Source of the DNA: a virus
Taxonomy: Duplodnaviria; Caudoviricetes
Direction: 5' to 3' (one strand)
Virus record (IMG/VR): IMGVR_UViG_3300008120_000119
Location: 1-56,468 of that record
Length of the DNA: 56,468 bases
Shown: positions 1 to 56,468 of the stretch, one piece after another
Layout of the letters: each line of letters opens with the position of its first letter
Position numbering within the stretch: position 1 is the first letter of the stretch
The notes under the pieces: generated by a model
Databases searched by the model: none
What the model saw: only the letters and a program-made list of their open reading frames with translations
What the model was told of the DNA's origin: nothing
Position numbers and translations under genes: made by a program

Positions 1-876
1 CCACCACCGCCGCCACCTCCACCCCCAGAAGAAACCGAGGCAGAGAAGGCAGCAAAGGCAGCGGCTGCACGACGGGCTTCGGAACAGCGGCAACGTCGTC
101 AAGCTGCTCTTGGGGGCGGCCTGAGTGCGTTTTTGGCCCCTCGTCCGTCTTCCTCGGCAGAAGATACGTATGGACCATTCAACCCATTAGTAACCGGCGG
201 TCAAACTGCCAAATTTGAGGGCCCCCTACAGGATTTCCTGGAAAAAGTCGAGACCCAGTCATATACTGACGACACACCTTTCATGGCGCCAGAGGGGCAG
301 CAATCCACACCTGAAACGACAGATATGAATGCTCAACCTGCTCCAAGCTACTTTAATTACGGGAAATCCTCGGAAATCGACGACACGTTGAACGTGGCGC
401 GTGGGATCGACTCGCAGATCTCATCGATGTTTAATCCGTTCAGAGCCCCAGGCGTCGGCACGCCGATGTTTACTTTCAAGGAGGGCGGGCTGTCTACTCC
501 CATGTTTAATGAGGGTGGCACCACTCGATACGGCCGGTATGCTGGGGGCGGGCTAAATGTGGTGCATCATTCTGGCAAGCCCCGTATTGATTTCCGCGAA
601 GGCGACGCGGTGACCGGACCTGGAGACGGGCAGTCGGACGATATTCCTGCCATGCTAGCCGACGGTGAATTTGTATTCCCCGCTGACGTGGTGGCCGCTC
701 TTGGGAACGGGTCTACCAAAGCAGGCAGCGACAAGCTTTACGACATGATGCATTCGATCCGCGCACAGGCTAGATCGGCGCATCCCAAGGACTTGCCCCC
801 GCCGGCAAAGTCACCACTGGATTACTTGAAAGACAGCCCCAAGAAGGGTTCTAAAGACAGAAAGGCTAGGAGATAA
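1..876 (+). CDS. C-terminal part of a large internal virion/ejection protein (continues from the ORF at 52902); ends in a GPGxGxSDxIPAMLxDGEFV domain
   Basis: Frame 1 is open from base 1 (PPPPPPPPPEETEAEK...) to TAA at 874-876. It carries FKEGG, FNEGG and YAGGG, then GPGDGQSDDIPAMLADGEFVFPADVV, resembling the C-terminus of many tape-measure proteins. Confidence 0.75.
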   Translation, partial: PPPPPPPPPEETEAEKAAKAAAARRASEQRQRRQAALGGGLSAFLAPRPSSSAEDTYGPFNPLVTGGQTAKFEGPLQDFLEKVETQSYTDDTPFMAPEGQQSTPETTDMNAQPAPSYFNYGKSSEIDDTLNVARGIDSQISSMFNPFRAPGVGTPMFTFKEGGLSTPMFNEGGTTRYGRYAGGGLNVVHHSGKPRIDFREGDAVTGPGDGQSDDIPAMLADGEFVFPADVVAALGNGSTKAGSDKLYDMMHSIRAQARSAHPKDLPPPAKSPLDYLKDSPKKGSKDRKARR

Positions 877-878
877 CC

Positions 879-1883
879 ATGTCCATAATGCAAGGGGCGC
901 CGTTACCAGATATCACGACGACCAGAACCACCGCGGTTGCTGGTCCAGACTACTACACCGATTACCTGACCGATCTCTCCCAGGCTGGTCAGACTGCCAT
1001 GGGCCGGTCTCCGTCCGAGATGGTGGCCGGTTATGACCCCCTGCAAGATCTTGGGTACGGTCAAGTCGAGGGTGCTGCTGGCGCTTACAAGCCGGGACTG
1101 ACTGCTGCCGGCCAGACGGCCGCGACGGCTGCGGGTGGTATCACGCCTGAGCGCATTACGTCTTTTATGAACCCCTACACGCAGAACGTCGTCGATGAAA
1201 TGGCGCGTCTCTCGCAGCAGAACGTGCAGCGCAATGTGCTGCCAATGCTGAAGGCTGGGTTCGTTGGTGGCGGTGGCCTGGGCAGCCGGCGGTACGCTGG
1301 AGCCCTTGGGCAGTCCATGGCAGACATTCAGGCGGGCCTGACGGGTCAGCAGTACGGCGCCCTCTCAAAAGGTTATAGCGAGGCTCTGAAGGCCGCCATT
1401 GACGAGGGTAGCCTGCTGAATCAAGCAGCTCGCACGCAGGCTGATATCGCCGGTAAAGAGCAAGAGCTCGGGCTGACCGGATCTGGTGCGCTTACTAAGG
1501 CCGGAGCAGAGCGGCAAGCTTACGAGCAGAGCATCCTCGACGCGCCCCTTAAAACGGCCACCACGGCCAACGCTCTGCTGCGTGGGTTCACCATACCGAC
1601 CACGCAAACGGAGACGACGGTGGGTCCGAGAGGCCGTGATTATTACCAGCAATCCGACCTACAAAATGTTCTCGGAATTATTTCTCTGCTTGGTGCGGCT
1701 CGTGGCGGTACGTCTGGCGAGGGTGGAACTGCTCTTGGTACGGGGTTAAAGAGCGTATACGACTGGGTTAAAGATTCGTTTGGTGGAGCGATTCCTGGCG
1801 GCATGAGTGAAGATGCTTTTGACGAAATACTTCGTAACGAAGGTTTCAACCCGGTTGACGACGATTACTACAGTCCTTTCTAA
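879..1883 (+). CDS. Putative ejection (DNA pilot-like) virion protein
   Basis: 334 aa, Gln/Ala/Gly-rich, with an FMNPYTQNVVD motif common in podovirus internal proteins; position after the tail genes. Confidence 0.6.
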   Translation: MSIMQGAPLPDITTTRTTAVAGPDYYTDYLTDLSQAGQTAMGRSPSEMVAGYDPLQDLGYGQVEGAAGAYKPGLTAAGQTAATAAGGITPERITSFMNPYTQNVVDEMARLSQQNVQRNVLPMLKAGFVGGGGLGSRRYAGALGQSMADIQAGLTGQQYGALSKGYSEALKAAIDEGSLLNQAARTQADIAGKEQELGLTGSGALTKAGAERQAYEQSILDAPLKTATTANALLRGFTIPTTQTETTVGPRGRDYYQQSDLQNVLGIISLLGAARGGTSGEGGTALGTGLKSVYDWVKDSFGGAIPGGMSEDAFDEILRNEGFNPVDDDYYSPF

Positions 1884-1894
1884 ACGGTTAAATC

Positions 1895-3760
1895 ATGGCT
1901 ACGCAACAATCTAAAGGCGCTTTAGCGGGGTTCTTGCCGGAGGTGTCGCCGGAGGCGGCGGAAGCCAACCGACGCTACATAGAGGCTCAGCGCAAGCTCG
2001 CAGAGACGCTCGACGTCCGCAAGAACAGAACCTTCGATCCAATGTGGCTGGCGGCCGCTAAGGGCTTTCTGGCACCCACTGGAAGCGGTAGCGCTTTTGA
2101 GGCCTTCGGTCGTGTCGCAGAGAACCTTGGTGCCGCTCAAGAGAAAGAGCAGGAGCTAGCCAAGACCATTGCTAGTCAAGAGCTTGAGCTTGCTGGTGCA
2201 GAGCTAGGCAGGGAAAGAATGCGTCAGCTAGATCGTGTTTACGAACAAATGCGTAAGCGCGGTGATGGGGGGCAAACGACTCTTGCTACCGGACCGGCCG
2301 GGGCGCTTCCCGTCGCAGCGGATTCTAAACCTGCTCTGCCGCCGTCTGTCGTTCGCAAGCCTACTGCACCGACTTCTGGTGGTGCGCTCCCCGCTGTTCA
2401 AGCGCAGGCTCAAGGCGCGTTGCCTGACGCCACTAAACACATGTTTGGACCAACAGTTCCTATGGGGCCACCCAACCCCACTTTTGTGACGGGTGATGAA
2501 TACATGATGATTGCCCAGCAACAGGGAAGAGACCCGCTTGAGGCAGTGCAGAAAGCTAATGAACTAGATCGTCAGCGTTTTGAGGTTAAAGATGACGGTG
2601 TTTTTGATAGGCAATTAAATACTTGGTCTCCCTTCTTTAAAGGTCAAGAAAAACATCAATTTGCCTATTCAGGCAGAAGCCTAGACATACCGTCGCAAGA
2701 CGCGTTTGAACTTAATCGCGCTCTGTCAAGGAATGATTGGCCGACGTACTGGCAAATTGCTAAAAAGTACGGCATCAACCCTCCAGAAGGCGCACCTCGC
2801 ACTATTGGAGCTACTGCTGGCGCTCCTGCCGGAGGCGGAGCCGCTGAACCTGCTGGTGCACCCGGTGCTCGTGCATCAACATCAGGCACTCCCGCACAAC
2901 CAGCTTTCCGCACAGAAACTGAGATGGAGGCGGACAGAGCGGCGCTTATTGAATATTCTAAAAACGTTGGAAAGAATGCCGCAGATGCGGAAGCAGCCCT
3001 TCCAAAAGATCGCGACAATGCTGCATTAATGCGGCAGGTTACAAAACGAGCACAAAGATTAATAGATAGGGCTGGCGATGCTATAGGTATTTTTTCCAAT
3101 CCTACATTTGGTGATGCTATAGGCACATTAGTCGCCGAAGGAATTTCACTTGGCCCAACCGCTAGAATTTCAGTTCCTGCGGTTCGCGAAGCAGTCATTA
3201 GGATGGACCGAAATGTAACTCAAGAGCAGCTTAATGCTCGTGTTGCTTTAATGACAGAGCTTGCCAATATTGAATTGCTCTTCCGTCGCGTTTATCTATC
3301 AGGTCAGGGTGCTGTGTCTAACATGGAAGGCGAAGTTGTTGCTCGTCTTGGTGGAACTGTAGAAATGAACGCAGATGTTTTGCGTGACAAGATGAAATTT
3401 GTTCAGGCACGTTCAGATTTTGACTTAGAAAAAATAGAAGCGTGGCGTCAAGTAAAAAACAGAGATCCCAAAGCTAGATATACCGACTGGTTAAATTCTG
3501 ATCAATACAAAGAGATTGCAGATAGGTATGATCAAAAACTTGAAAGGATTGTTGACGAGTCGCCACTTTATGGTAATTCGCCTTCTTCTGCGCCTCAGCC
3601 GCCAGCAACTAAGCCGCCTGTAACTAAGCCCGCTGCCACTCCTACAGCCCCTGCCGGCGCTGCTACTCCGGCCGCTCCCCGCTCCGCTCCTTCTAGCGGA
3701 AGCTTGGCTAACGATATTCAAAAGAAGGCCAATGAGCTTCGCAAAGGGGTGCCGCAATGA
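1895..3760 (+). CDS. Putative ejection/internal virion protein
   Basis: 621 aa, helical segments with Pro/Ala linkers, GQGAVSNMEG motif; lies in the ejection-protein cluster. Confidence 0.55.
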   Translation: MATQQSKGALAGFLPEVSPEAAEANRRYIEAQRKLAETLDVRKNRTFDPMWLAAAKGFLAPTGSGSAFEAFGRVAENLGAAQEKEQELAKTIASQELELAGAELGRERMRQLDRVYEQMRKRGDGGQTTLATGPAGALPVAADSKPALPPSVVRKPTAPTSGGALPAVQAQAQGALPDATKHMFGPTVPMGPPNPTFVTGDEYMMIAQQQGRDPLEAVQKANELDRQRFEVKDDGVFDRQLNTWSPFFKGQEKHQFAYSGRSLDIPSQDAFELNRALSRNDWPTYWQIAKKYGINPPEGAPRTIGATAGAPAGGGAAEPAGAPGARASTSGTPAQPAFRTETEMEADRAALIEYSKNVGKNAADAEAALPKDRDNAALMRQVTKRAQRLIDRAGDAIGIFSNPTFGDAIGTLVAEGISLGPTARISVPAVREAVIRMDRNVTQEQLNARVALMTELANIELLFRRVYLSGQGAVSNMEGEVVARLGGTVEMNADVLRDKMKFVQARSDFDLEKIEAWRQVKNRDPKARYTDWLNSDQYKEIADRYDQKLERIVDESPLYGNSPSSAPQPPATKPPVTKPAATPTAPAGAATPAAPRSAPSSGSLANDIQKKANELRKGVPQ

Positions 3761-4947
3761 ATATTAACGAGATGACGCCAGAGCAAATTTTTCTGGCAGA
3801 AAATATTATCAAAGAGGCAAGAGCGGCTGGCGTCAATCCGGACTTTGCTTTGAGGCTTCTTTTTCAAGAAAGCCAGTTCTCTCCTGCCGCCATAGGCGAC
3901 AACCCAGAAGAGGTGTTAGAGAATATTCGCGCCTCGATGGGGATGATCAATAATTTGCGTGAATCCCTTGGCAATGATCCCGCGGCAATTGCCGCTGGGT
4001 TCTTTGCTGGTGAAGCTGGTGAACGTTTTACGGAAACGAAAGACATAAACGATTTGCCGCCTGAAGCAATTCTTATAACCTCAGATCTGCTTTCGAGCTT
4101 TGGCGGTAATGTTCCATCGGTCTTTGAATTGCCAGCAGAACTAGCTGACAACCCATTTATGTCGGAATTGCCCGAAGATTTCGGCGATCAGACAATTAGT
4201 CAACCACAGCCGACCATCAAACAAATTCAAGACCAGAAACAAATAGAGAGCGAAACGGACGCTGGCCGAGCTTATGGGGCTGGTGCTGGTGCAATGTTCT
4301 CAGCAGGCAAGGGAGCACTTGATCTTGGTTCTGCTGTTGTCAATAGGCTGAGTGGAGCTGCGAGAGCTCCTACGGGCGGTGGTGCCCTCCCAGGCCCAGG
4401 GCAAGCTCTTACTCCTGGCCAAAAATGGGCGCAGGCTGTTACGGGCGTTGTAAAACCCGGCGCTCAAACCGTTGTTGATGCTGCCTCAGACTATCGTCGA
4501 ATAATGCCCAGCGGGAAAGTCAGCAAACCTTTGGCGCAGAAGTACGGGATTAATGCTCCGTTGGATATTGCTCGCATCGCGGCTCAGAATGCTCCGCAGG
4601 GTGGGTTGCAGTCTGTTACCAACATGTTCCAGCGTATGGCTCAGACGCCGCTAGGTCAGGCGGCTGCCACAGCGGGGCGCGCTACCGCTCGATATGGGAT
4701 ACCTCCCTTAACTGTTGCCGCAGGCGGTGGAGAGCTTTTAGGTGGGATACAGGAAATGAGAAAAGACAATCCTGACCCCGTAGAGTTAGCGCTGCGTGGA
4801 CTAGGAGTTTTGGGCGCGGGAATGTCTTTATTCCCACCAACAATGGCTGTTGGGGTTCCATTGGCGCTTGGCGCTCCGTTATTGCGTGAAAACAGAAAAA
4901 AGGGGCCCGTTTTAGAGCCCCAATCCTTGGGTTTAATGGCGCCTTAA
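3757..4947 (+). CDS. Ejection protein with degenerate SLT-like N-terminal domain and hydrophobic C-terminus
   Basis: AxxxGVNPDFALRLLFQES matches SLT motif I; GLMQ is absent; AGFFAG replaces AAYNAG; ATGA overlap with the upstream gene. Confidence 0.55.
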   Translation: MNINEMTPEQIFLAENIIKEARAAGVNPDFALRLLFQESQFSPAAIGDNPEEVLENIRASMGMINNLRESLGNDPAAIAAGFFAGEAGERFTETKDINDLPPEAILITSDLLSSFGGNVPSVFELPAELADNPFMSELPEDFGDQTISQPQPTIKQIQDQKQIESETDAGRAYGAGAGAMFSAGKGALDLGSAVVNRLSGAARAPTGGGALPGPGQALTPGQKWAQAVTGVVKPGAQTVVDAASDYRRIMPSGKVSKPLAQKYGINAPLDIARIAAQNAPQGGLQSVTNMFQRMAQTPLGQAAATAGRATARYGIPPLTVAAGGGELLGGIQEMRKDNPDPVELALRGLGVLGAGMSLFPPTMAVGVPLALGAPLLRENRKKGPVLEPQSLGLMAP

Positions 4948-4964
4948 CTTCTCCACCGTTGATG

Positions 4965-5135
4965 TCACCAACGGGTTTGCCCCCCTTCGTTGGGGGGGTT
5001 TTTTTCCATGGTCGCTAAAACGAAGGCTTCGATCTTCCGGGCGAACTCCAGCACGTCCACCTCGGCGTAAAGGCCTTTCTCATCGTTATTCTCGCAGTAC
5101 ATAAAGAGCTGCTTGATATCGTCATCACTTAACAT
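4965..5135 (-). CDS. Hypothetical protein
   Basis: MLSDDDIKQLF..., 56 aa; last gene of the leftward block. Confidence 0.55.
   Translation of the reverse strand: MLSDDDIKQLFMYCENNDEKGLYAEVDVLEFARKIEAFVLATMEKNPPNEGGQTRW
4979..5005 (+). terminator. Rho-independent terminator ending the rightward late operon
   Basis: CCCCCC-TTCGTT-GGGGGGG followed by T7 at the convergence of the + and - gene blocks. Confidence 0.7.
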
Positions 5136-5331
5136 TTTTTGCTCTCCAATTTTCCCAATGCGCGATTGCCTGCCGAGCGACCGCACGCTGAGCTGCGCCC
5201 TGGTACTTAAACTCGTCTAGGCACTTCTCAATAATTAGGTGCTGGTCGAGAAAGGACTCGTGATAAGCGGCCTCCTCTTCGTCCGTGAAGACCTTCCCGT
5301 CCCTCGTTTCGTATGCAGTGATCTGTTTCAT
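5125..5331 (-). CDS. Hypothetical protein
   Basis: 68 aa with an AYETRDGKVF motif frequent in small phage proteins; overlaps both neighbours. Confidence 0.65.
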   Translation of the reverse strand: MKQITAYETRDGKVFTDEEEAAYHESFLDQHLIIEKCLDEFKYQGAAQRAVARQAIAHWENWRAKNVK

Positions 5332-6089
5332 TGGTGATTGTTCTTTGCTTGCCAGAAATTTAACAGATGGTAAAACATCTGCCAGCCCCTACGCAGATCC
5401 TCTGAGCTCCACTCCTTAACGACCACGAGCCCCTGGACCGATCGAGACACAAAGACGTTGGCGCATCGAGCGTTCTGCATCCCCAGGCCAACCCGGTACG
5501 CAGCCAACTGCATCAGGTGCTCGTCGTAGACGTCGACCTTGTCTGGGTCGGCAAACTCTTTGGTCTTGATATCCACCACGACGCTGTCGCAGTGCATGTC
5601 GACCTTGCCACCGAACCCCATCTCATGGGCGAATGACTGCTCACACTTCCAGACCTGGGGGCCGAAAGCCTGATCCACCGCGGAGCGGAATGCCTCGATG
5701 CTCTTGGTATGGTCCGGCCACTTAACCGCGCCACCTTCGTAGTAGTTCTGAATGGCGGCATGGATATCGGTACCGGCGTCCGCGGCCATACGGGACTGCT
5801 CTTTGCTGTCGTTGATGATCCGCTCGAAATACTGCTCTTCCGTCTCGGATGCGATCTTCGGCAGAGTAAGCGCAGCCAGGAGTACCTGCTTCTGCATCCA
5901 CTGCAACAGGGCCGGTTTTGCGGCCGCGTTGATGATGGTGGTCACGCTAGGTACTAGGTTGTGCTTGCGGGCATCGCGGAGCGTGGTGGGCCTATAACCG
6001 CCCTTGGCGGCCTCTATGGTGTACATGGGCTCACCCTCTCGGGTGTACCAGTGCCCCGCTTCAGTAGCGCGGATGGTGATCTCAGCCAT
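5328..6089 (-). CDS. PD-(D/E)xK exonuclease (Cas4/lambda-exo-like phage recombination nuclease)
   Basis: PSVTTI, GTDIH, GGKVD...VDIKTK and QLAAY motifs. Confidence 0.85.
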   Translation of the reverse strand: MAEITIRATEAGHWYTREGEPMYTIEAAKGGYRPTTLRDARKHNLVPSVTTIINAAAKPALLQWMQKQVLLAALTLPKIASETEEQYFERIINDSKEQSRMAADAGTDIHAAIQNYYEGGAVKWPDHTKSIEAFRSAVDQAFGPQVWKCEQSFAHEMGFGGKVDMHCDSVVVDIKTKEFADPDKVDVYDEHLMQLAAYRVGLGMQNARCANVFVSRSVQGLVVVKEWSSEDLRRGWQMFYHLLNFWQAKNNHQ

Positions 6090-47744: not shown

Positions 47745-48133
47745 GCTCCGCCACCAAGACCCAGCCCGAGAAATGGGAGCGCATTAAGGCGCAGGTGAAA
47801 GCTTCTGGGAAAGGCGGTTCACCGGGTCAATGGTCTGCCAGGAAGGCTCAGCTTGCCACCCAGAAGTACAAAGCCTCTGGCGGGGGTTACAAAGGCCCCA
47901 AAAAGGCGGATAATTCGCTCTCAAAGTGGACGAAGGAGGACTGGGGAACCAAGTCTGGAAAACCGTCCACGCAGGGCCCTAAAGCGACTGGCGAACGTTA
48001 TTTGCCAAAAGCGGCACGAGAGAAGCTCACCCCTTCTGAATACGCGGCAACCACCCGAGCCAAGCGTGAAGGAACAAAGGCCGGGAAGCAATTCGTACCC
48101 CAGCCCGAATCGATCAAGAAAAAGGTGTGGTGA
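47741..48133 (+). CDS. DUF5872-like basic protein
   Basis: GQWSARKAQL...YK..GGGY.G, LSKWTKEDW.TKSGKPS, GERYLP. Confidence 0.7.
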   Translation: MSSATKTQPEKWERIKAQVKASGKGGSPGQWSARKAQLATQKYKASGGGYKGPKKADNSLSKWTKEDWGTKSGKPSTQGPKATGERYLPKAAREKLTPSEYAATTRAKREGTKAGKQFVPQPESIKKKVW

Positions 48134-48771
48134 TGACCGTTGCCGCCGTAATGACCTATGACAGCTTGGTAGACGATCTTTCTACCTACCTGGAGCGGAC
48201 CGATCAGGCCACGCTCGATAAGATTCCCACCTTCATTATGCTGGCTGAGCAGGTCATCGCGACCGAGCTCAAGTTTCTTGGCAACCTGACGGTGGCCACC
48301 TCTCAGATGGTCCCCGGCCAAGCAACGATCGACAAGCCCGCTCGGTGGCGCAAAACCGTTTCGCTTAATGTGACGGTGGCCGGTAGCCGGCAGCCCGTGC
48401 TGTTGCGGAAGTACGAGTACCTTCGGGAGTTCTGGCCAAATCCGACAGAAACCGACACGCCGAAGTTTTATTGCGACTACGACTACACGCACTGGCTCGT
48501 GGCGCCTACGCCTGATATCGCTTACAACTACGAGGTTCTGTACTACGAGCGGGCACAGCCCCTGGACTCGTCGAATCAGAGCAACTGGTTTACCCAGTAC
48601 GCGCCCCAGGCAATGCTGTACGGATCTCTTTTGCAGGCCATGCCGTTCTTGAAGAACGACGAGCGCATTCCCATGTGGCAGGCCCAATATCAACAGGTCA
48701 TCACCACCTTGCAGGCCGAAGACATCACTCGGGTGGCTGACCGTCAGAGCATAGTAAGGGATGCATCATGA
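48133..48771 (+). CDS. Tail adaptor/tubular-like protein
   Basis: TYDSL...YLER.D...IPTFIMLAE, APTPD, NWFT.YAP..LYGSL..A.PFLKND.R. Confidence 0.7.
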   Translation: MTVAAVMTYDSLVDDLSTYLERTDQATLDKIPTFIMLAEQVIATELKFLGNLTVATSQMVPGQATIDKPARWRKTVSLNVTVAGSRQPVLLRKYEYLREFWPNPTETDTPKFYCDYDYTHWLVAPTPDIAYNYEVLYYERAQPLDSSNQSNWFTQYAPQAMLYGSLLQAMPFLKNDERIPMWQAQYQQVITTLQAEDITRVADRQSIVRDAS

Positions 48772-50009
48772 GCTTTATCAGCCCATTCACCGGCAACGTC
48801 ATTCAACCGACCGACGTCAGCTACCGCACCGTCACTCTAGCGGCCAATACCACCCTGGAGTGGCCGATCAATGGCAACGCCACGGATAACGTCGCGGCCA
48901 GGATCATGAACGTCACCGCCTCGTCTGGCGGCCTGACCCTGCGGGTACCGCCTGCGAACCAAGCTTCGGTTGGCGAAGATCTTCTTATCCGTAACGTGGG
49001 TGCTAACACCTTCACCCTGGCGGACTACGACGGCAATACGCTCGTCTCTATGACCGCGGGGCTGGCTCGGTACATCTACATCACAGCAAACACCACCACG
49101 GCCGGCACATGGTCCGTATTAGCCTTTGGTGCCGGGGCTTCTGCGATTGATTCCTCAAGCCTCGCAGGCAACGGTCTGAAGGCCATCGGCGCCACGCTGA
49201 ACTCAGCAATTAATGTGACTACCTTCGCGTCGAACTACACCGCGCTAGATACTGACCGAGCTGAGAACTACGTCTGGACCGGCGGGGCGGGAACCCTGAC
49301 GCTTTCTTCCTCTGCCACGCTGGGCAATGACTGGTTCATTGTGGTCCGAAATGGCGGTACCGGCACGCTCACGATTGCAACCACTGGCGGCGATCTAATC
49401 AACGGATCGTCGACTGTTGCTTTGCAACCGGCAGATAGCTGCTTCGTTACATGTTCGGGAGCTGCCTTCTACACGGTAGGCTTGGGCAAGTCGACGCAGT
49501 TCAACTTCACGCAATTAACCAAGGCGGTTACGACCGGGTCATACATTCTGACCGCGTCTGAGGCCTCCAACGTCATTCAGAAGTACACCGGCACGCTGTC
49601 GGGAAACGTAACTATTCAGCTCCCCCCGACGATTCAGGTCTACTACATTACCAATCAGACTGACGGCACGGGCTCTGGGTACACGATTACCTTTACCACG
49701 GGCATCGCAGGCACCAACACTGCCGTCGTGCCCCCCGGTGAGCAGGTTATCCTGCTGTGCGATTCCGCCAACCTATTCAATGCCTCGACGATTGCCGCGG
49801 GCGCTGTGACCCTTTCCCTGCCTAACGGTACGGTTTCCTCTCCCCCCTTAAACTTTGCGGCCGAAACCACCACCGGCATGTACCGACCAGGAAGCGGCCA
49901 GATTGGCTGGACTGTCTTGGGGAGCCTACGGATGCTGCTCAATGCTTCCGGTCTAGGTATCACCGGATCTGGCACCTTCTCGGGTGGCATTAGCGGCGGG
50001 ACGTTCTAA
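48768..50009 (+). CDS. Tail/baseplate-associated beta-rich protein
   Basis: 413 aa, Thr/Gly-rich; P.LNF..ETTTGMYRPG; ends GGISGGTF. Confidence 0.6.
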   Translation: MSFISPFTGNVIQPTDVSYRTVTLAANTTLEWPINGNATDNVAARIMNVTASSGGLTLRVPPANQASVGEDLLIRNVGANTFTLADYDGNTLVSMTAGLARYIYITANTTTAGTWSVLAFGAGASAIDSSSLAGNGLKAIGATLNSAINVTTFASNYTALDTDRAENYVWTGGAGTLTLSSSATLGNDWFIVVRNGGTGTLTIATTGGDLINGSSTVALQPADSCFVTCSGAAFYTVGLGKSTQFNFTQLTKAVTTGSYILTASEASNVIQKYTGTLSGNVTIQLPPTIQVYYITNQTDGTGSGYTITFTTGIAGTNTAVVPPGEQVILLCDSANLFNASTIAAGAVTLSLPNGTVSSPPLNFAAETTTGMYRPGSGQIGWTVLGSLRMLLNASGLGITGSGTFSGGISGGTF

Positions 50010-52234
50010 TGACCGAAAAGGTCTTTTCGATCGACACCCTACCTGGGGTGCAGCGGGACGGTACGGTCCTAGATCGTCAGTATTACACCGACGGTCGGTG
50101 GGTTCGTTTCCAACGCGGCCGCCCCCGCAAAATTGGCGGATTCCGGGTCATCTCTGACCAGATGCAGGGTCCGTCCCGCGGGATATGGGTCAACCCCTCA
50201 GACAACTTCAACTCGGTCTTTAGTGGGTACAACAATGGCCTGCAAGTCTTAACGATTGACGATAACGGGGTCGGATCGGGCATCACAGACTTCACCCTGT
50301 CTGATTTCACCCCCTCGGACCTCAACTTGTGGCAATTCGACGGGTTTTATGACGTTGCCGGGTCTGGGGTCCAGAGCCTGATTGCTCACCCAGGCCAAAA
50401 TCTGGCGGCCATCGACGCCACCGCCGACACTCCGGTATTGATTGGCAGCATCACTGGCAACACAATGAGCCAGATTGGGGTTTTTACCGATACGATCACA
50501 GCCACCGGCACCGCTACGGTCACTGTCGCAGTGGTTAATCCACTAATCGGAGTAGGCCAGACGGTCACAGGTTCGGGTATACCCGCAGGAACCGAGGTCA
50601 TTTCGGTCAATGGCACCTCGATTGGGCTGAATAACGCGGTCCCAGCCGGCACGATCTCCGCCACCTTTGACAATAACGTGCAGGTTTCTGGCGGCGTAGT
50701 CGTTCTGCACCCCTACATCTTTGTTTATGGCAACAACGGCCTGATTCGGAACTGCTCTGCCGGTAATGCTCAAGACTGGGTCTCGGCAGACGCCAACGAA
50801 AACAACGTGGCGAGCGGCAAGATCGTCAAGGGCCTGCCGGTTCGAGGTGGCTCTAACAGCCCTTCAGGCCTCTTCTGGAGCCTTGATAGCCTGATCCGTG
50901 TGTCCTACGCTCCGCAGTCCCTGGGAATCGCAGGAACGGCCGATTACGCAGCTCCAACCTTCTGGCGGTACGACATCATCTCCAGCCAGAGCTCGATCAT
51001 GTCGTCGCAGTCGGTCATCGAGTACGACGGTATCTACTACTGGTGCGGTGTAGACCGGTTCCTGCTCTATAACGGAACGGTCAAAGAGATTCCGAACTCG
51101 ATGAACCAGAACTACTTCTTTGACAACCTGAACTACACCCAGCGGCAGAAGGTCTGGGCTACAAAAGTTCCCCGGTTTGGCGAGATCTGGTGGTTCTACC
51201 CCCGCGGCGACTCCACCGAGTGCAATGACGCGATCATTTACAACGTCCGAGAGAATGTCTGGTACGACGCTGGGCTGGCCGCAGGCTCTCGCAGGACCGC
51301 CGGTTACTTTTCCCAGGTCTTTGCCTACCCAGTCGAGGCTGCATGGCCAGGAACCGTATCTGAGGTCATCGACAGCGGCACATACAGCCTGACCTCTGGT
51401 TCTCCGTTCCTGTATTCGGACACGTACAACGACTTGGTAGCCGTCAATCAGCTCGTAGTGGCCTCGGCTCTGCCTGCTAATACCCTGATTCAGGACATCA
51501 CGTCGAGCAACATTAAGACGCTGACGAACCTCGTTGGTGGGTCTCTGTACGTCGACAACACCTACAACAACGTGCCCCTTACCGGAGGGTCTGGATTCGG
51601 TGCGAAGGCCACCATCACCGTTACTGGTGGCGCTGTGGTCAGTGTGGTCGTGACTGACGTCGGAGCTGGTTATCAGATCGGTGACGTGCTGAGCGCATCT
51701 AACACCAACCTTGGCGGTGCAGGCTCCGGATTCTCAATTGACGTGAGCGCGATCTACGCCCAGACCATTCAATTGACCCAGAATGCCCTAGCCACAATTA
51801 CCGAGACCGTCACCTTCAGAACACGCCCGAATCTGATCAAGGTCTACCAGCACGAGATTGGTACGGATGAGATCGATGGCCAGAACGTGAACGCCATTCA
51901 GTCCTACTTCGAGACCAGCGATCTTGGTCTGGTGACCGGTGGGCCGTCGCAGCCTTCTATGGAAGGTCTGAATCGATGGCTGCGCCTGGAGCGGGTGGAA
52001 CCTGACTTCATCATGACCGGCAACATGAACCTATACGTTACAGGCCGCCCGTATGCTCAGGTCGAAGACAAGACTTCAGATCCTTATGTCTTCGCGCCGA
52101 ACACCAACAAGATCGACATGAAAGAGCAGCGGCGAGAGCTTCGGCTGAAGTTTGAGTCGAACGAGGCCGGTGGCAATTATCAAATGGGCCGCGTGCTGTT
52201 GAGCGCAACCTACGGTGACGTCAGGGGCTACTAA
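50009..52234 (+). CDS. Tail nozzle/stabilisation-like protein
   Basis: PGVQRDGT...DGRWVRFQRGRPRKIGG; FGEIWWFYP...IIYN..ENVWY; beta-propeller-like composition. Confidence 0.7.
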   Translation: MTEKVFSIDTLPGVQRDGTVLDRQYYTDGRWVRFQRGRPRKIGGFRVISDQMQGPSRGIWVNPSDNFNSVFSGYNNGLQVLTIDDNGVGSGITDFTLSDFTPSDLNLWQFDGFYDVAGSGVQSLIAHPGQNLAAIDATADTPVLIGSITGNTMSQIGVFTDTITATGTATVTVAVVNPLIGVGQTVTGSGIPAGTEVISVNGTSIGLNNAVPAGTISATFDNNVQVSGGVVVLHPYIFVYGNNGLIRNCSAGNAQDWVSADANENNVASGKIVKGLPVRGGSNSPSGLFWSLDSLIRVSYAPQSLGIAGTADYAAPTFWRYDIISSQSSIMSSQSVIEYDGIYYWCGVDRFLLYNGTVKEIPNSMNQNYFFDNLNYTQRQKVWATKVPRFGEIWWFYPRGDSTECNDAIIYNVRENVWYDAGLAAGSRRTAGYFSQVFAYPVEAAWPGTVSEVIDSGTYSLTSGSPFLYSDTYNDLVAVNQLVVASALPANTLIQDITSSNIKTLTNLVGGSLYVDNTYNNVPLTGGSGFGAKATITVTGGAVVSVVVTDVGAGYQIGDVLSASNTNLGGAGSGFSIDVSAIYAQTIQLTQNALATITETVTFRTRPNLIKVYQHEIGTDEIDGQNVNAIQSYFETSDLGLVTGGPSQPSMEGLNRWLRLERVEPDFIMTGNMNLYVTGRPYAQVEDKTSDPYVFAPNTNKIDMKEQRRELRLKFESNEAGGNYQMGRVLLSATYGDVRGY

Positions 52235-52500
52235 TGTCTACCGTATCGCCTCCACTCGTATACGATCCAAGATTCCATACGTTCGAGTCTTGGGCTTCGC
52301 TTATGTGCGAGCAGTACGCTTCTAACCAGCTTGCTATTCCTACGCCCCAGACGGACTGGAAAGAGTGGGGAGACGGACTAAAAGCAATCGACGTCTTCGT
52401 CAACGAAGCAATACCGAACACAGAAAATTTTGATAACTGGTTTGACTGGGCATCAGCCCTTCTGGCCGCGATCAACCCGACGGTGATACCAAATGGCTGA
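52234..52500 (+). CDS. Hypothetical Trp-rich virion protein
   Basis: DPR..TF..WA...W..W...F..W.DWA. Confidence 0.6.
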   Translation: MSTVSPPLVYDPRFHTFESWASLMCEQYASNQLAIPTPQTDWKEWGDGLKAIDVFVNEAIPNTENFDNWFDWASALLAAINPTVIPNG

Positions 52501-52900
52501 AGTCTCTGAAAACGAGTTGCAAGAAGTTCTGGATATCGTAACGGCGTTCTATAAAAAGCACGTCAAAAGCGACGAAGAGGTCAACGTTCTCTTGCAAAAG
52601 CTTAGCTCTATGGTGCAAGACCAGGGGACGAAGCTCGTGCATTTTGGGGGAACCGTGTTCTTGACCATGGTGCGTGACAAGGGCTTGATTGAGTTTCACC
52701 CCATGTATGCCGAATACGATCAAGATTCTCTCGCAAGAGAACTAGATCAATTTGTTGACTACGCAAAAAGCATAGGCGTCAAAACAATCTTCACTTATAC
52801 CAAGCCCAAAGACGAGTACGAAGACGTCATACAGGCTGCATCTCCCATGTTCGATATGTTTGAAAAAGATGGCAAGCGCATCTTTATAGTGGGGGTGTGA
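52493..52900 (+). CDS. Hypothetical protein, possibly degenerate GNAT-like
   Basis: AKSIGVKTIFTYT; sits before the ejection proteins, where podoviruses often carry a GNAT-like gene. Confidence 0.45.
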   Translation: MAEVSENELQEVLDIVTAFYKKHVKSDEEVNVLLQKLSSMVQDQGTKLVHFGGTVFLTMVRDKGLIEFHPMYAEYDQDSLARELDQFVDYAKSIGVKTIFTYTKPKDEYEDVIQAASPMFDMFEKDGKRIFIVGV

Positions 52901-52901
52901 C

Positions 52902-55900
52902 ATGGGTTGGAACCCGAAACGAGATCTACAAAAAGCCTGGAGAGGCGTAGAAAAGACAGTCTCCAAGGCTGTACCCAAAGAGATCAAAGAAAACCCAGCC
53001 ATTCTTTTGGTGGCTGCGGCAGTTTTTGCTCCCCACCTGATCCCACAAATTGGTCAATACACAGCATCTGCTGTTGGTCTTGGTGCTGTAAGCCCTGCTG
53101 TTGCTGCCGGTATTGGAGCTGGGGTCGTATCAGGAACGATGACCGCCATTCAAGGTGGTGACGTTGGTGATGTTCTTAGAAGCGCGGTTATTAGCGGCGT
53201 CGCTGCTGGTGCTGGAACTGCCGCTGGCAGTTATGTCGGCACTGAAGTTGGATTTGCTGTTGATGCCTCTATGCCTGGGTTCGGAGTCACGGCAGGTAAT
53301 ATAGCCGAACGAGTAGTAAGCGGCGCTGTACGCAGTTCTCTTCAGACTGGCCTGCAAACCGGAGATTGGGCTCAGGGGTTGAAGACTGGCGCAATCATGG
53401 GTGCTGCCGCGTCTTTGCCGGACATTTTTAATCAATCTGCCGCGTTTCGAGATCTTCCAAACTTTGCCAAAAACATAGTCGCGCAATCGACGATTGCATC
53501 TGTAACAGGCGGAGACCCTGCGGAAGCAGCAATCACAGCGACAATGCAGGGTGCGCTGAAACAAGGCGCAGAGGTTTTCTCTCGCATGTTCAAGGCAGAC
53601 CCGAACGGCGATATTGCAAAGTTTGCCAAAGAGAATCCAGAGGCTGCGTCATTAATGATGACGAGCATGGGCTCTGCCATAAGCGCAACGCTAACGGGCA
53701 AAGATGTCAGTGACGCGGTGATGGATAACGCGGTCAAATTTGCTACTGACAAGATGCGCCAGGGAATACGCACCGGCGTAATCCAGAACAGCATTCAAAA
53801 AGCTCAGCAGAACTACGCCGAAGTAGAAGACCTGACCGCGGAAATAAGCTCAAGGAATGCAAAGCTTGAAGAGCGTGTGAAGGACTTTAATAAAAGCATT
53901 CCCTACTATGACAGGGTTTTTGACAGAGAGGCTAAGTCTGTTCAGCAAGCTTTAGATGTTGTTAAACAAGACTATCAAGCTTATAAGTCGGCCGAGCAGG
54001 CATACTTGAATGGTGGGTCTCCTTGGACATACGATGAATTTGGTAATTTAGTTAGTACCGGCGTTTCTCTTGAGCAGGTCAATGCTGCTGCAAATAAAGT
54101 AAATGAAAGCTATAAAGTTTTTCAAAACAGGCAGGACAATTTTGACGTTGTCAATAGAAGCATTTCTGAACAGGTAGCCAGTCTAGAACAAGAAAAAGCC
54201 GACATCGCTAAGCTGTACGACGGCGCTCAAGCAAAAATTGACAATGTCTCAATAAACTCTTTTCTCTTTACCAAGTATTCTGATGAGCTAAAAGACGACA
54301 TTCTTGCAAACGCTGAGGCGCTGACAGATCCCAACAAGTACGCGCTTTATCAAGAGAAGCAAAGCAAGCTTGGTCTTGCATACGATGAGTACCTTAAGAG
54401 CTTGCCGCCTGATAGCGTAAGCAACAAGGTCTATCCGAACACGGTCACGCCGAACTTTAAGATCGACAGTGACTACAACGTCATCGATCGCAAGAGCAAT
54501 CAGGTTATTGGTAGGCTGCCTGCTGATCAGCGAGCTATTGAAACCGCTCAGATAAGCAGAGACTCAAAAACCGGAAACATTCAAATTACATCCGGTGCGA
54601 AGGCTAGTAAAGACGATGACTATGCTTATGTAGACCCGGTTACTGGAAAGCCAAAAATAAGAGTGACTACGTCTGCTCCAAGCGATGCGGGCACACTCAT
54701 ATTGAAGCAATCGTCCTTGAATGGCGTTGATTTTGTTTTGGAACCAATTGTTGTGACTGCCACCAGAGAAGGTGCAGAAACGCTTAGCGCATTGCAAACT
54801 GAAGACCCAATGGCTTGGTACTACGCTGTTGCCAACATGCCAGAAAAGCAGCGCGACAGGTTTATACCTCCAGAGGTAAGCAGAACAGTATCAGATACCT
54901 GGAAAAATATTAAAGAAGGCGTTCCTCAATCTGTTAAAAACGCTATCGTTAATGTTGTCAGTGCTGCCAAGCCAGAAGCAACAACGCTAGAAGCGCTTTC
55001 CGCGATGGCGTATGTCGGCAAAAACTTTGCGGATGTTTTTGGCGCAAACAATGTTATCTCCCAGAATTTTGACAAGGCTAATGTTTACATTCAGGGCATG
55101 CTTAGTGCAGCAGCTAAAAATGACAAAGACGAAGCAAATCGCATCATGGACGCGGCGAAGAACGCTGGCGTGCTTGATCAGACCATTGCTGCTTTTGAGG
55201 CGTTAAGAGCTTATCCCGCTGCAATATTCCAGGGTGTCGGTAGCATCATGGGGTCAGCAATTTTATTGGCGCCAGCGTTAGCGTTGAGTACAACAGCTGC
55301 GCAAGCTCAAATTGCGACGTATGGCCTTGGTGGCATCCAGGGCGCGGGTATTGCCAAGGGCACTCTATACGACGAGACAAAAAAAGCTCTCACAGCGGCG
55401 AATGAAAAGTACAAACTAGGTTTAAGTTCCGGAGAAATTGAGCTGCGCGCTCAAGAGGCTCAGGCATATAACGGAAAAAATTTAGATCTGATCTTTGCAA
55501 ACATGGCTGCCGGTTCTTTGGCTGGCGGTAAGGGCGCGGAGCAGATCTTCACTAAACAGATTGCAGCAGACATTGCACAGGGAGTAGCTCAAAAATCAGC
55601 CGCTAATCAATTTGTAGCTGGTGGCCTTGATATGGCTCGGGCGGGGATTAATGAGGGCATCTGGGAATACGCGCAGGGTGCAACTGAGCGTGGTACGGCC
55701 AACATCAATCTACAGCGGCAAGGTTTTGACATTCCGACCATGCAAGGTGTGCATGGGGCTGGTACTTATGAGGCTTTGATAGGCGTTCCGAGTGCTATTG
55801 GCATAGGTGGAGTAGGTATAGGGTCATCGCCACCACCGCCACCTGGAAGCGGAGGCATTACAGGAATAGGGCCATTTCCGCCATCGGGATCTGGCAGCTC

Positions 55901-56468
55901 AACTCTTGATGGCGCACCGTCATCACGGCCACCAACGTTGGCTCCATACCTTTTGGCTCCTACAGAAAGAGCCACGCTCGACGTGCAGGCTAATCAGGTG
56001 GCCGCTCTTAATGATGCATATCGGCAGACGGTTGCACCGCTAGAAAACAAGTCATCTGACATCGTCAAGCAATATGAAGCAGCAGAACAGTCAGGAAACA
56101 CCGCCGCGCTTGGCGACCTTTCGATGGAGTGGGCCCGAGCACAAAGAGCGATTAATAGCGCTCAGGCTCAGGCAGAACAGCAGGTGCAGAACATTCTTGC
56201 GCCTGCCCCAGCTACTGCTCCGCAGGTAGACCCGTTTGCTGTGGAGTACGACAAGCTTTCATTTGATCAGCAATTCCGCGCAGAACAGGGACTTGCTAGC
56301 CTGGGCATTGCCGATCCGACTAAAGGAGAGGTGGCGCAGTTCGCATTAGAGGGCCCGACCGCCTTTATTGGTCAGCCCCGTCGCACTACTGCAACGGCTG
56401 CTCCGGCTCCGGCCCCAGCTCCGGCTCCCGCACCTGCACCAGCTCCTGCACCTGCGCCAACTCCCGCA
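52902..56468 (+). CDS. Large internal virion/ejection protein, N-terminal 1189 codons (open at window end; not in ORF track)
   Basis: ATG GGT TGG AAC CCG...; Gly/Ala-rich hydrophobic N-terminus, coiled coil, then (AP)n at the end in the same frame. I read both ends; the track's omission is consistent with no stop in this frame. Confidence 0.8.
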   Translation, partial: MGWNPKRDLQKAWRGVEKTVSKAVPKEIKENPAILLVAAAVFAPHLIPQIGQYTASAVGLGAVSPAVAAGIGAGVVSGTMTAIQGGDVGDVLRSAVISGVAAGAGTAAGSYVGTEVGFAVDASMPGFGVTAGNIAERVVSGAVRSSLQTGLQTGDWAQGLKTGAIMGAAASLPDIFNQSAAFRDLPNFAKNIVAQSTIASVTGGDPAEAAITATMQGALKQGAEVFSRMFKADPNGDIAKFAKENPEAASLMMTSMGSAISATLTGKDVSDAVMDNAVKFATDKMRQGIRTGVIQNSIQKAQQNYAEVEDLTAEISSRNAKLEERVKDFNKSIPYYDRVFDREAKSVQQALDVVKQDYQAYKSAEQAYLNGGSPWTYDEFGNLVSTGVSLEQVNAAANKVNESYKVFQNRQDNFDVVNRSISEQVASLEQEKADIAKLYDGAQAKIDNVSINSFLFTKYSDELKDDILANAEALTDPNKYALYQEKQSKLGLAYDEYLKSLPPDSVSNKVYPNTVTPNFKIDSDYNVIDRKSNQVIGRLPADQRAIETAQISRDSKTGNIQITSGAKASKDDDYAYVDPVTGKPKIRVTTSAPSDAGTLILKQSSLNGVDFVLEPIVVTATREGAETLSALQTEDPMAWYYAVANMPEKQRDRFIPPEVSRTVSDTWKNIKEGVPQSVKNAIVNVVSAAKPEATTLEALSAMAYVGKNFADVFGANNVISQNFDKANVYIQGMLSAAAKNDKDEANRIMDAAKNAGVLDQTIAAFEALRAYPAAIFQGVGSIMGSAILLAPALALSTTAAQAQIATYGLGGIQGAGIAKGTLYDETKKALTAANEKYKLGLSSGEIELRAQEAQAYNGKNLDLIFANMAAGSLAGGKGAEQIFTKQIAADIAQGVAQKSAANQFVAGGLDMARAGINEGIWEYAQGATERGTANINLQRQGFDIPTMQGVHGAGTYEALIGVPSAIGIGGVGIGSSPPPPPGSGGITGIGPFPPSGSGSSTLDGAPSSRPPTLAPYLLAPTERATLDVQANQVAALNDAYRQTVAPLENKSSDIVKQYEAAEQSGNTAALGDLSMEWARAQRAINSAQAQAEQQVQNILAPAPATAPQVDPFAVEYDKLSFDQQFRAEQGLASLGIADPTKGEVAQFALEGPTAFIGQPRRTTATAAPAPAPAPAPAPAPAPAPAPTPA
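56400..56468 (+). repeat. Ala-Pro codon repeat at the contig end
   Basis: GCN-CCN x10 then ACT CCC GCA; the window start is CCN x9. Confidence 0.9.

What the first reader, a model, noticed from the sequence alone, without database searches (positions are those of the whole stretch)
475..790. GPGxGxSDxIPAMLxDGEFV domain: candidate reader or protease of the xxGG tag
Seen: three tags (FKEGG 475, FNEGG 505, YAGGG 538) directly precede GPGDGQSDDIPAMLADGEFVFPADVV at the end of the giant ejection protein. Established: siphovirus tape-measure proteins often end in FAxGG...GEFV, and lambda gpH is C-terminally processed. Seen: no prohead protease is recognisable elsewhere in this genome. Inference: this small acidic (S-D-D/E) domain binds or cleaves xxGG motifs in cis and in trans.
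Basis: partly seen in the sequence, partly recalled or inferred. Interest (0 to 1): 0.7.

Follow-up and report, generated by a model that had tools for sequence, protein, structure and literature searches.

The report
Tape-measure end module on podophage ejection protein
The flagged stretch is the strongly conserved last ~135 residues of an otherwise hypervariable giant virion protein of a short-tailed phage, and it carries a glycine-tagged module also found near the far end of the tail tape-measure proteins of long-tailed phages; nothing suggests it is a protease.

Summary
FKEGG (475), FNEGG (505) and YAGGG (538) precede GPGDGQSDDIPAMLADGEFVFPADVV (616-693) at the end of an ORF that runs off both ends of the record in one frame (1480 aa if the record is circular).

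The core motif plus a following helix-GxG-helix is a huge family with no Pfam or NCBIfam model (13131 representative proteins at E<=1e-3). In 80 of 80 best viral-contig loci it lies 1-26 residues from the C-terminus. It belongs to the first gene after a podophage nozzle, at the head of an ejection-protein cassette. The same core occurs inside annotated tape measure proteins (TMPs) of cultured siphophages, including JBD30 gp46 and Douge gp16, with a reduced form in lambda gpH.

An h-A-x-G-G tag lies within 40 residues upstream of the core in 74 of 74 proteins. AlphaFold2 folds only the helices. No peptidase family matches. The Ser/Asp residues are missing in lambda gpH, which is nevertheless cleaved.

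Best reading (0.5): a non-enzymatic docking or leading-end module, possibly released by a cut at the tag as in T5 pb2. The protease/reader idea is not supported. The scan found this before on other DNA.

The parts
52902..56468 (+). N-terminal 1189 codons of the giant virion protein. The ORF is open at the 3' end of the record. It has Gly/Ala-rich hydrophobic stretches, coiled-coil-like regions and an Ala-Pro linker at the end.
   Evidence: No PHROG family; only sub-threshold Pfam hits. No BLASTP similarity to 15 of 17 full-length relatives.
1..876 (+). C-terminal 291 codons plus stop of the same protein. It is in frame with 52902..56468 across the record ends.
475..552 (+). Three Gly-Gly tags at a period of about 10 residues: FKEGG 475-489, FNEGG 505-519, YAGGG 538-552. 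This is the start of the most strongly conserved block; G29, G30, P34, A48 and G50 of alignment A2 are nearly invariant.
616..693 (+). Core motif GPGDGQSDDIPAMLADGEFVFPADVV. Invariant or nearly invariant residues are G-x-G, S-D, I-P-A, L, D-G-E and V.
   Evidence: AlphaFold2 pLDDT is about 50.
682..774 (+). Helix, G-N-G-S turn, helix (ADVVAAL / TKAGSDKLYDMMHSIRAQARS). This is the only part AlphaFold2 predicts confidently.
   Evidence: block pLDDT 84-95; G81, G83 and G88 are invariant in A3.
790..873 (+). Long-form C-terminal extension: DLPPPAKSPLDYL followed by a basic tail. It is present in the window's subfamily and absent from the short-form subfamily, which ends after helix 2.
879..1883 (+). 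Next gene of the cassette (334 aa). Homologues lie directly downstream of the domain gene in relatives. In some more distant loci the gene at this position is a phrog_4287 'DNA ejection protein'.
   Evidence: tblastn hits in 35 of 80 loci; phrog_4287 in 4 of 12 loci scanned. The window ORF itself has no family hit.
1895..4947 (+). Two further cassette genes (621 aa and 396 aa). They have no family hit. The last gene of the cassette in MW202545.1 is annotated 'transglycosylase slt domain' as deposited; whether it is homologous to the window's 396-aa ORF was not tested.
48127..52900 (+). Podophage tail genes upstream: SU10-type adaptor (48127-48771), a 413-aa ORF, the nozzle (50009-52234), and two small ORFs (88 and 135 aa).
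   Evidence: PF24175 at E 8e-26; phrog_3287; nozzle gp16 of phage VP1, PDB 8zkk, E 2.8e-8; SU10 adaptor 7z47, E 0.002.

Best explanation
The last ~135 residues of the giant protein are the constant functional end of a protein whose body is free to vary. The layout is: one or more h-A-x-G-G tags, a short hairpin, an extended acidic Gly-rich loop (GPGxGxSDxIPAxL), a strand (DGEFV) and a helix-GxG-helix.

This end is homologous to a module found in the distal third of siphophage tape measure proteins. Here it sits on the first gene of a podophage ejection-protein cassette.

Shown:
- The homology to the TMP module.
- The gene position.
- The extreme contrast in conservation between the end and the body.
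- The coupling of tag and core.
- The lack of any enzyme signature.

Inferred:
- The module has no fold of its own and becomes ordered only inside an assembly.
- It holds the protein's C-terminal end in the tail or portal channel during assembly.
- It is the leading or anchoring part when the protein is expelled, as the C-terminal parts of T5 pb2 and lambda gpH are.
- It may be separated from the body by a cut just in front of a tag.
For: (1) Homology. The region hits TMP PHROGs 6090, 25241, 3547, 17300 and 5448 at E 9e-6 to 1e-3. A five-sequence profile hits two solved-structure TMP sequences: Douge gp16 at 965-1003 and 1413-1449 of 1699 (E 6e-15), and JBD30 gp46 at 1019-1056 of 1158 (E 3e-6). 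A short-form query hits 356 cultured-phage records; of the 60 rows shown, most are annotated tape measure proteins.

(2) Literature on the JBD30 region. The JBD30 paper (PMC11445458, passages read) predicts residues 1022-1066 as a 'hook' of two helices and a hairpin. It likens this to the T5 pb2* end that docks between hub subunits after ejection (PMC10038345, passages read).

(3) Position. In 80 of 80 best IMG/VR loci the module ends 1-26 residues from the stop. The gene order nozzle, small ORF, domain gene, then 3-4 further genes was seen in all 15 loci laid out. Of 12 loci scanned, phrog_3287 lay upstream in 10 and phrog_4287 'DNA ejection protein' downstream in 4.

(4) Conservation contrast. 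The C-terminal 125 aa are 56-83% identical in 17 of 17 full-length relatives. The other 1355 aa give no BLASTP hit in 15 of 17. Carrier proteins among the best 150 representatives range from 97 to 3022 aa.

(5) Structure prediction. Two AlphaFold2 runs (63-row and 84-row alignments) give the core pLDDT of about 50 and the two helices 84-95. This fits a segment that orders on binding.

(6) Tandem copies. In 120 of 368 domain proteins the HMM finds more than one copy (119 with two, one with four). In the three that I read (L001, L048, L082) a full strand-helix-turn-helix unit is followed by a second that lacks the Gly-rich loop. This suggests that units pack on each other.
Against: No partner is identified. 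No solved structure resolves this module; only the last 33-42 residues of JBD30 and Douge TMPs are built (PMC11445458 and PMC13033339, passages).

In several TMPs the module is internal rather than terminal: RadFad at about 900 of 1313, Douge at 965 and 1413 of 1699. That fits an 'end-docking' role poorly.

The module is nearly identical in phages with unrelated tail tips and hosts: Actinobacteria, Alpha- and Gammaproteobacteria and Cyanobacteria. A specific tail protein therefore cannot be the common partner.

P22 gp14, gp7, gp20 and gp16 lack the module.

That the giant protein is packaged and ejected rests on gene position alone.
Confidence: 0.5

Rival explanations
1. Release joint. The h-A-x-G-G tag plus core marks where the protein is cut during maturation, by a host peptidase or an unidentified phage one. 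The cut frees a ~90-140-residue C-terminal fragment that stays as a plug, like lambda gpHC and T5 pb2C. This overlaps with the best explanation and differs in making cleavage the point of the module.
For: T5 pb2 is cut after R1127 (PMC10038345, passages), and the sequence there reads FVPR|AEGGMMYPG.

[quoted passage not shown] Both the site and the catalyst are unknown (PMC12617516, passages). FATGG...GEFV...YATGG lies at 733-782.

The P22 record notes that the first 20 residues of ejection protein gp7 are removed by host OpdA. The sequence reads ...YPE|KGGKGG if exactly 20 are removed.

The window's most strongly conserved block starts at the first tag, about 133 residues from the end. That is the size class of gpHC and pb2C.
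Against: There are only two or three mapped cuts, and none is in a protein with the full core. The HMM finds no similarity in T5 pb2 and only 3.6-4.7 bits in lambda gpH.

The JBD30 authors place their hypothetical cut after the module, at 1066, not before it. No cleavage data exist for any podophage carrier.
Confidence: 0.25
2. One reading: the acidic core is itself a small protease or a reader that binds or cleaves xxGG tags, in cis and on other tagged proteins.
For: Tag and core always occur together.

h-[AK]-x-GG tags are strongly enriched in two other window proteins: 8 observed against 0.93 expected in the 2124-aa ORF, and 10 against 0.44 in the 378-aa ORF, with 0 of 1000 shuffles reaching either count.

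The tagged 378-aa protein is kept in 4 of 4 related genomes, with 8-9 tags each.

The catalyst of TMP cleavage is unknown (PMC12617516).
Against: No peptidase family matches in Pfam, PHROGs or NCBIfam. AlphaFold2 predicts no fold for the core.

S58, D59 and D67 are replaced in lambda gpH (GKYEPAGIVHRGEFV) and T5 pb2, both of which are cleaved.

Within 8 kb of the domain gene, only 1 of 501 other ORFs and 4 of 78 domain proteins are tag-enriched.

Confidence: 0.05
3. Metal-dependent folding latch. The Gly/Asp-rich loop (GxGDGxSDD...DGE) binds Ca2+ or Mg2+ once outside the virion. Folding then pulls or locks the expelled chain, in the manner of RTX repeats.
For: D59 and E69 are invariant, and S58, D67 and G68 nearly so. 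The segment is disordered in metal-free prediction. Some carrier proteins also hold RTX repeats (PF00353 in P0243 and P0259).
Against: By eye the loop fits neither the EF-hand nor the RTX nonapeptide spacing, and Pfam reports no calcium-binding family. Lambda's reduced form lacks the acidic loop.
Confidence: 0.1

Closest known systems
Distal part of siphophage tape measure proteins: JBD30 gp46 residues 1019-1066 (the predicted 'hook') and mycobacteriophage Douge gp16 (965-1003 and 1413-1449)
   Same: The same core, FAxGG...GPGTGxSDSIPxxxSxxEF..., matched by profile at E 3e-6 and 6e-15. It sits in a long protein that fills a tail channel and is expelled first.
   Different: The window protein is not a TMP. 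It has no TMP N-terminal family, and the genome has no tail tube, chaperone or distal tail genes but an adaptor and a nozzle instead. In the TMPs another 100-700 residues follow the module. The module is unresolved in both structures.
Lambda gpH residues about 733-782, inside the unresolved N-terminal part of fragment gpHC. This stretch is covered by TIGR01541 (472-813) but not by PF09718 (627-701).
   Same: FATGG, GEFVFTKEA..IGVG..LYRLM and YATGG appear in the same order and spacing as in the short-form subfamily. The region belongs to a piece that is cut off and kept at the tail tip (PMC12617516).
   Different: Lambda lacks the GPGxGxSDxIPA loop. The HMM score is only 3.6-4.7 bits, so homology is plausible but not proven.
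T5 pb2 cleavage site (R1127|AEGG) and fragment pb2C
   Same: A Gly-Gly tag lies directly after the one precisely mapped TMP cut. Downstream, GTEVVT resembles GEFVFT (PMC10038345).
   Different: There is no statistically detectable similarity. pb2C carries a carboxypeptidase-like signature that the window lacks.
Podophage ejection / internal virion proteins (P22 gp7, gp20, gp16; T7 gp14, gp15, gp16)
   Same: The gene sits right after adaptor, nozzle and small ORFs, at the head of a run of 3-4 large genes. P22 gp7 is trimmed by a host peptidase next to KGG.
   Different: No sequence similarity to P22 gp14, gp7, gp20 or gp16. T7 was not compared. The window protein is far larger, and only its end is conserved.

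Membership tests
Unnamed GG / GE[FY]V module of tape measure proteins (seen in PHROGs 6090, 25241, 3547, 17300, 5448, 23013) | Core G-x-G-x-G-x-S-D-x-I-P-A-x-L-x-x-G-E-[FY]-V | tested here: met
   all invariant positions are present at 616-693.
Unnamed GG / GE[FY]V module of tape measure proteins | An h-A-x-G-G tag within about 40 residues upstream of the core | tested here: met
   74 of 74 family members. The window has three tags at 475-552.
Unnamed GG / GE[FY]V module of tape measure proteins | Core followed by helix, G-x-G turn, helix | tested here: met
   helices with block pLDDT 84-95; G81, G83, G88 invariant.
Tape measure protein (whole protein) | A TMP family domain (PF10145, PF06791, PF24164, TIGR01760 or similar) | tested here: not met
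   none in the 1189-aa or the 291-aa part. The positive controls lambda gpH, T5 pb2 and RadFad gp19 do hit them.
Tape measure protein (whole protein) | Gene lies between tail assembly chaperones and a distal tail protein in a long-tail module | tested here: not met
   the neighbours are an SU10-type adaptor and a podophage nozzle. No tail tube, sheath or chaperone family was found.
Peptidase (prohead protease S78/U35/S49, or any other) | Match to a peptidase family profile | tested here: not met
   no Pfam, PHROG or NCBIfam peptidase hit on the module.
Peptidase (prohead protease S78/U35/S49, or any other) | Candidate catalytic residues kept wherever cleavage is documented | tested here: not met
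   the S-D and the Asp of D-G-E are absent in lambda gpH and T5 pb2; only the Glu is kept.
Peptidase (prohead protease S78/U35/S49, or any other) | A compact fold with an active-site cleft | tested here: inconclusive
   the core has pLDDT of about 50, and a low-confidence model proves nothing; best Z 3.0.
Podophage ejection proteins | Gene position after adaptor and nozzle, at the head of a run of large genes | tested here: met
Podophage ejection proteins | Present in the virion and released on infection | not testable with these tools
   Needs proteomics or an infection assay on a cultured relative.

The most novel reading that the evidence does not exclude
The h-A-x-G-G tag with the GE[FY]V core is a common 'release joint' of DNA-delivery proteins in long-tailed and short-tailed phages. 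A cut in front of the tag would free a C-terminal plug; a host oligopeptidase of the OpdA type or the assembled channel itself could make that cut. The same tags on the 2124-aa and 378-aa proteins of this genome would mark them for the same loading or processing. This would explain the 50-year-old unexplained cleavage of lambda gpH and T5 pb2.
Probability: 0.15. Interest if true: 0.8.

Novelty: new variant of a known kind. Interest (0 to 1): 0.5.

Why it matters
One short, very widespread module links the tape measure proteins of long-tailed phages to the ejection proteins of short-tailed phages. These two protein classes do the same job but are usually treated as unrelated. The module has no family model in Pfam or NCBIfam.

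The module lies where lambda gpH and T5 pb2 are cut, by a still unknown catalyst. That gives a concrete handle for mutagenesis in lambda, T5 or JBD30: the tag, the S-D loop and GEFV.

For annotation, it flags the first ejection protein in thousands of uncultured podophage genomes whose protein bodies are otherwise unrecognisable.

Tried and rejected
- Homotrimer prediction of the 137-residue end (complex prediction, alignment A3, 3 copies): verdict 'no answer', score 0.01 against a mark of 0.42. This is evidence neither way.
- Fold searches with the second AlphaFold2 model. Against 48161 PDB representatives the best Z was 3.0, from unrelated helical hairpins. Against BFVD only sequence relatives turned up, all uncharacterised.
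- ESM Atlas: only unnamed viral clusters. The nearest named one was a crAss cargo family at 0.82, below the lead threshold.
- phmmer of the 291-aa end against PDB sequences: nothing below E 0.1.
- Megablast of 1-6000 against cultured phages: no match.
- tblastn of the 378-aa tagged protein against cultured phages: no match. Its BLASTP comparison with HTVC104P gp81 gave no similarity (E 0.92).
- Literature search for six motif strings: 2 papers, both unrelated. A search combining 'tape measure protein' with autoproteolysis terms returned only unrelated papers among the 15 listed. 'Not described in print' therefore rests on these two searches and on the absence of a Pfam or NCBIfam model.
- Considered and dropped by eye: EF-hand and RTX loops (spacing does not fit); S74 intramolecular chaperone (no Lys, no Pfam hit); LysM and PG_binding_1 (no Pfam hit); a ribbon-helix-helix DNA binder (the strand is acidic and hydrophobic).
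- An earlier scan note names RcGTA g11 and F-type pyocin TMPs as further carriers. I did not test that.

Full report
WHAT IS THERE

The window is a 56468-base virus record. Frame 1 of the + strand is open from base 1 to the stop at 874-876 (291 codons). The ORF starting at 52902 runs off the 3' end after exactly 1189 codons. The two pieces are in the same frame, and an Ala-Pro / Pro run continues across the junction. If the record is a circle or a permuted genome, the protein has 1480 residues. The junction lies in a low-complexity repeat, so the exact length is not certain.

- FKEGG at 475-489
- FNEGG at 505-519
- YAGGG at 538-552
- GPGDGQSDDIPAMLADGEFVFPADVV at 616-693

WHAT KIND OF PHAGE AND GENE

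The genome encodes the following, all:
- a large terminase, a portal and an HK97-type capsid protein;
- an SU10-type adaptor (PF24175, E 8e-26, at 48127-48771);
- a 741-aa protein of phrog_3287.

The 741-aa protein matches the nozzle gp16 of Vibrio podophage VP1 (PDB 8zkk, E 2.8e-8, residues 326-428 only). No tail tube, sheath, tail chaperone or distal tail protein family was found.

The gene order is adaptor, 413 aa, nozzle, 88 aa, 135 aa, giant protein, 334 aa, 621 aa, 396 aa. This parallels P22 (adaptor gp4, gp10, needle gp26, gp14, then ejection proteins gp7, gp20, gp16). 'Ejection protein' is therefore a reasonable reading by position. It is not shown: P22 gp14, gp7, gp20 and gp16 share no detectable similarity with the module.

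THE MODULE IS REAL, HUGE AND UNNAMED

Size of the family:
- phmmer with residues 150-265 against 1.84 billion representatives gave 13131 proteins at E<=1e-3, 1398 at E<=1e-10 and 136 at E<=1e-30.
- Among the best 150, the match ends roughly 15-50 residues before the C-terminus in proteins of 97-3022 aa. Over the 368 domain proteins, the 5th-95th percentile of that distance is 14-23 residues.
- A profile of five diverse copies (A1) found 7928 proteins among the 8000 candidates scored.

Naming:
- No Pfam or NCBIfam model covers it.
- The ESM Atlas returns only unnamed viral clusters.
- PHROGs match only through TMP families.

Position in uncultured phages:
- In IMG/VR, 532 stretches encode a relative. 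In all 80 loci kept, the module ends 1-26 residues before the stop.
- The carrier gene is 217-1812 aa long in the 15 loci laid out.
- In those 15 loci it always follows a ~610-930-aa gene and one or two small ORFs, and precedes 3-4 larger genes.
- Of 12 loci scanned with PHROGs, the upstream gene is phrog_3287 in 10, and a downstream gene is phrog_4287 'DNA ejection protein' in 4.
- tblastn finds the window's nozzle in 71 of 80 loci, its 334-aa downstream gene in 35 of 80, and its 88-aa ORF in 25 of 80. The flanks are limited to 8 kb.

ONLY THE END IS CONSERVED

Against 17 full-length relatives, the last 125 residues align at 56-83% identity in 17 of 17. The first 1355 residues give no BLASTP hit at E<=1e-3 in 15 of 17.

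The most strongly conserved block begins at the first Gly-Gly tag. Weaker conservation (Y..YG....ID) appears some 25 residues earlier.

Two sub-architectures exist. A long form, like the window, continues with R.HKRSA....IPP.AKSPL.YLK and a basic tail. A short form stops after the second helix.

THE LINK TO TAPE MEASURE PROTEINS

- tblastn of the window's end hits 61 cultured-phage records: 42 Arthrobacter phages (annotated tape measure proteins in the rows shown), the Caulobacter phage GB2A group, and Pelagibacter podophages.
- A short-form query hits 356 records: Gordonia 167, Arthrobacter 42, Burkholderia 37, Vibrio 32, Mycobacterium 29 and others. Most of the 60 rows shown are annotated tape measure proteins.
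- In RadFad gp19 the module lies at about residue 900 of 1313.
- In Pelagibacter phage HTVC104P it ends gp81, a gene between the portal and the capsid gene whose product also carries five ATGG-type tags.
- The A1 profile hits two solved-structure TMP sequences: Douge gp16 (two copies) and JBD30 gp46 at 1019-1056.
- Neither structure resolves the module. Only Douge residues 1658-1699 and the last 33 residues of JBD30 are built (PMC13033339 and PMC11445458, passages read).
- The JBD30 authors predicted 1022-1066 as a 'hook' of two helices and a hairpin. They compared it with the T5 pb2* end that inserts between hub subunits after ejection (PMC11445458 and PMC10038345, passages read).

THE TAGS

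Coupling of tag and core:
- A GG lies within 40 residues upstream of the core in 74 of 74 carriers with enough upstream sequence.
- The control is 42% of other 40-residue windows in the same Gly-rich proteins.
- The context is [M/A/Y/L/F]-A-x-G-G.

Tags elsewhere in this genome:
- h-[AK]-x-GG is enriched in just two other proteins: the 2124-aa ORF between terminase and portal (8 against 0.93 expected), and the basic 378-aa ORF after the capsid gene (10 against 0.44). In both, 0 of 1000 shuffles reach the observed count.
- The 378-aa protein has homologues with 8-9 tags in 4 of 4 related genomes searched.
- Within 8 kb of the domain gene in the 80 loci, only 1 of 501 other ORFs and 4 of 78 domain proteins are enriched.
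- Whether tag-rich genes and the core co-occur genome-wide beyond this clade is untested.

CLEAVAGE PRECEDENTS

- T5 pb2 is cut after R1127 (PMC10038345). In the sequence that I translated, the site reads FVPR|AEGGMMYPGVSYQMGEHGTEVVT. The HMM sees no similarity there, so this is a resemblance and not homology.
- Lambda gpH has FATGG 733-737, GEFVFTKEATSRIGVGNLYRLM from 754, and YATGG 778-782. HMM matches are weak but correctly placed: 4.7 and 3.6 bits, single-sequence E 0.002 and 0.005.
- Pfam PF09718 ends at 701; TIGR01541 spans 472-813.
- The Ur-lambda paper (PMC12617516, passages read) says a ~14 kDa piece is cut from the glycine-rich region. [quoted passage not shown]
- The P22 record notes that the first 20 residues of gp7 are removed by host OpdA. 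The sequence reads YPE|KGGKGG if exactly 20 are removed.
- These are two mapped cuts, plus one whose position I derived from a record note, next to a Gly-Gly tag. This is suggestive only.

IS IT A PROTEASE OR READER?

Nothing supports that:
- No peptidase profile matches.
- AlphaFold2 with 63-row and 84-row alignments gives the core pLDDT of about 50 and only the two helices 84-95.
- Fold searches find nothing.
- S58, D59 and D67 are invariant or nearly so in the family. They are replaced in lambda gpH and T5 pb2, the two TMPs that are known to be cut.
- The absence of a prohead protease is real in my scans but needs no explanation. The 319-aa ORF after the portal resembles scaffolding proteins (ESM score 0.88, a lead only). 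P22-type assembly has no head protease (recalled).

MOST LIKELY MECHANISM

The end is a non-enzymatic module that orders only inside an assembly. It fixes the C-terminal end of a variable, channel-filling or head-packed protein in the tail or portal channel, and it leads or anchors the chain at ejection. The module may be detached by a cut before a tag.

The homology, the position and the conservation pattern are shown. Docking, ejection and cleavage are inferred.

Points against:
- No partner is known.
- The module is internal in several TMPs.
- It is near-identical across phages with unrelated tail tips, so its partner must be generic: itself, the channel wall, or a host envelope component.

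Tandem copies hint at self-packing. The HMM finds more than one copy in 120 of 368 domain proteins. In the three that I read (L001, L048, L082), a full unit is followed by a second that lacks the Gly-rich loop.

EARLIER NOTES OF THIS SCAN

One search shows that follow-up agents reached the same reading on other genomes. Those notes pointed me to lambda gpH, which I then checked myself. The T5 site I had already read independently.

SUPPLEMENTS

I read no supplementary files. Appendix Fig. S8 of the JBD30 paper (the predicted hook) and fig. S5G of the T5 paper (the cleavage map) may bear on the comparison.

Noticed in passing
window 31892-33028 (+): A basic, low-complexity 378-aa ORF after the capsid gene carries ten h-[AK]-x-GG tags (LKKGG, YKEGG, YATGG, MAKGG and others) against 0.44 expected. 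Homologues with 8-9 tags exist in 4 of 4 related genomes, all ending ...TEKSVTV.P..KRGG..C. It has no family hit and no match in cultured phages.
   Followed up: partly
window 18580-24954 (+): A 2124-aa ORF lies between the large terminase and the portal. It has eight h-[AK]-x-GG tags (0.93 expected) and ends in RKKGGLATIKK.... Its only family hit is phrog_7348 ('endolysin', residues 222-635). It may be a packaged multidomain protein with tags between modules.
   Followed up: partly
window 27813-28250 (+): A 145-aa ORF just after the portal gene matches Cpn10/GroES (PF00166, E 3e-6, above the gathering score). This could be a phage co-chaperonin within the head module.
   Followed up: no
L042:2335-2784 and L060:7086-7532: In two distant relatives an acetyltransferase gene (phrog_1249) is inserted directly after the domain gene, inside the ejection-protein cassette.
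   Followed up: no
L001:7791-8171; L048; L082: Some carriers have the module in tandem: a full copy followed by a second copy that lacks the GPGxGxSD loop. The HMM finds more than one copy in 120 of 368 domain proteins (119 with two, one with four).
   Followed up: partly
L091:9369-10058 (P22 gene 7): The GenBank note says the first 20 residues of ejection protein gp7 are removed by host OpdA. The sequence around that point is YPE|KGGKGG, so a Gly-Gly tag lies directly after the cut, as in T5 pb2 (R1127|AEGG).
   Followed up: partly
window 56400-56468 and 1-27: The record's ends fall inside an (Ala-Pro)n / Pro9 linker of the giant ORF. This repeat could have broken or collapsed the assembly, so the protein's true length may differ from 1480 aa.
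   Followed up: no
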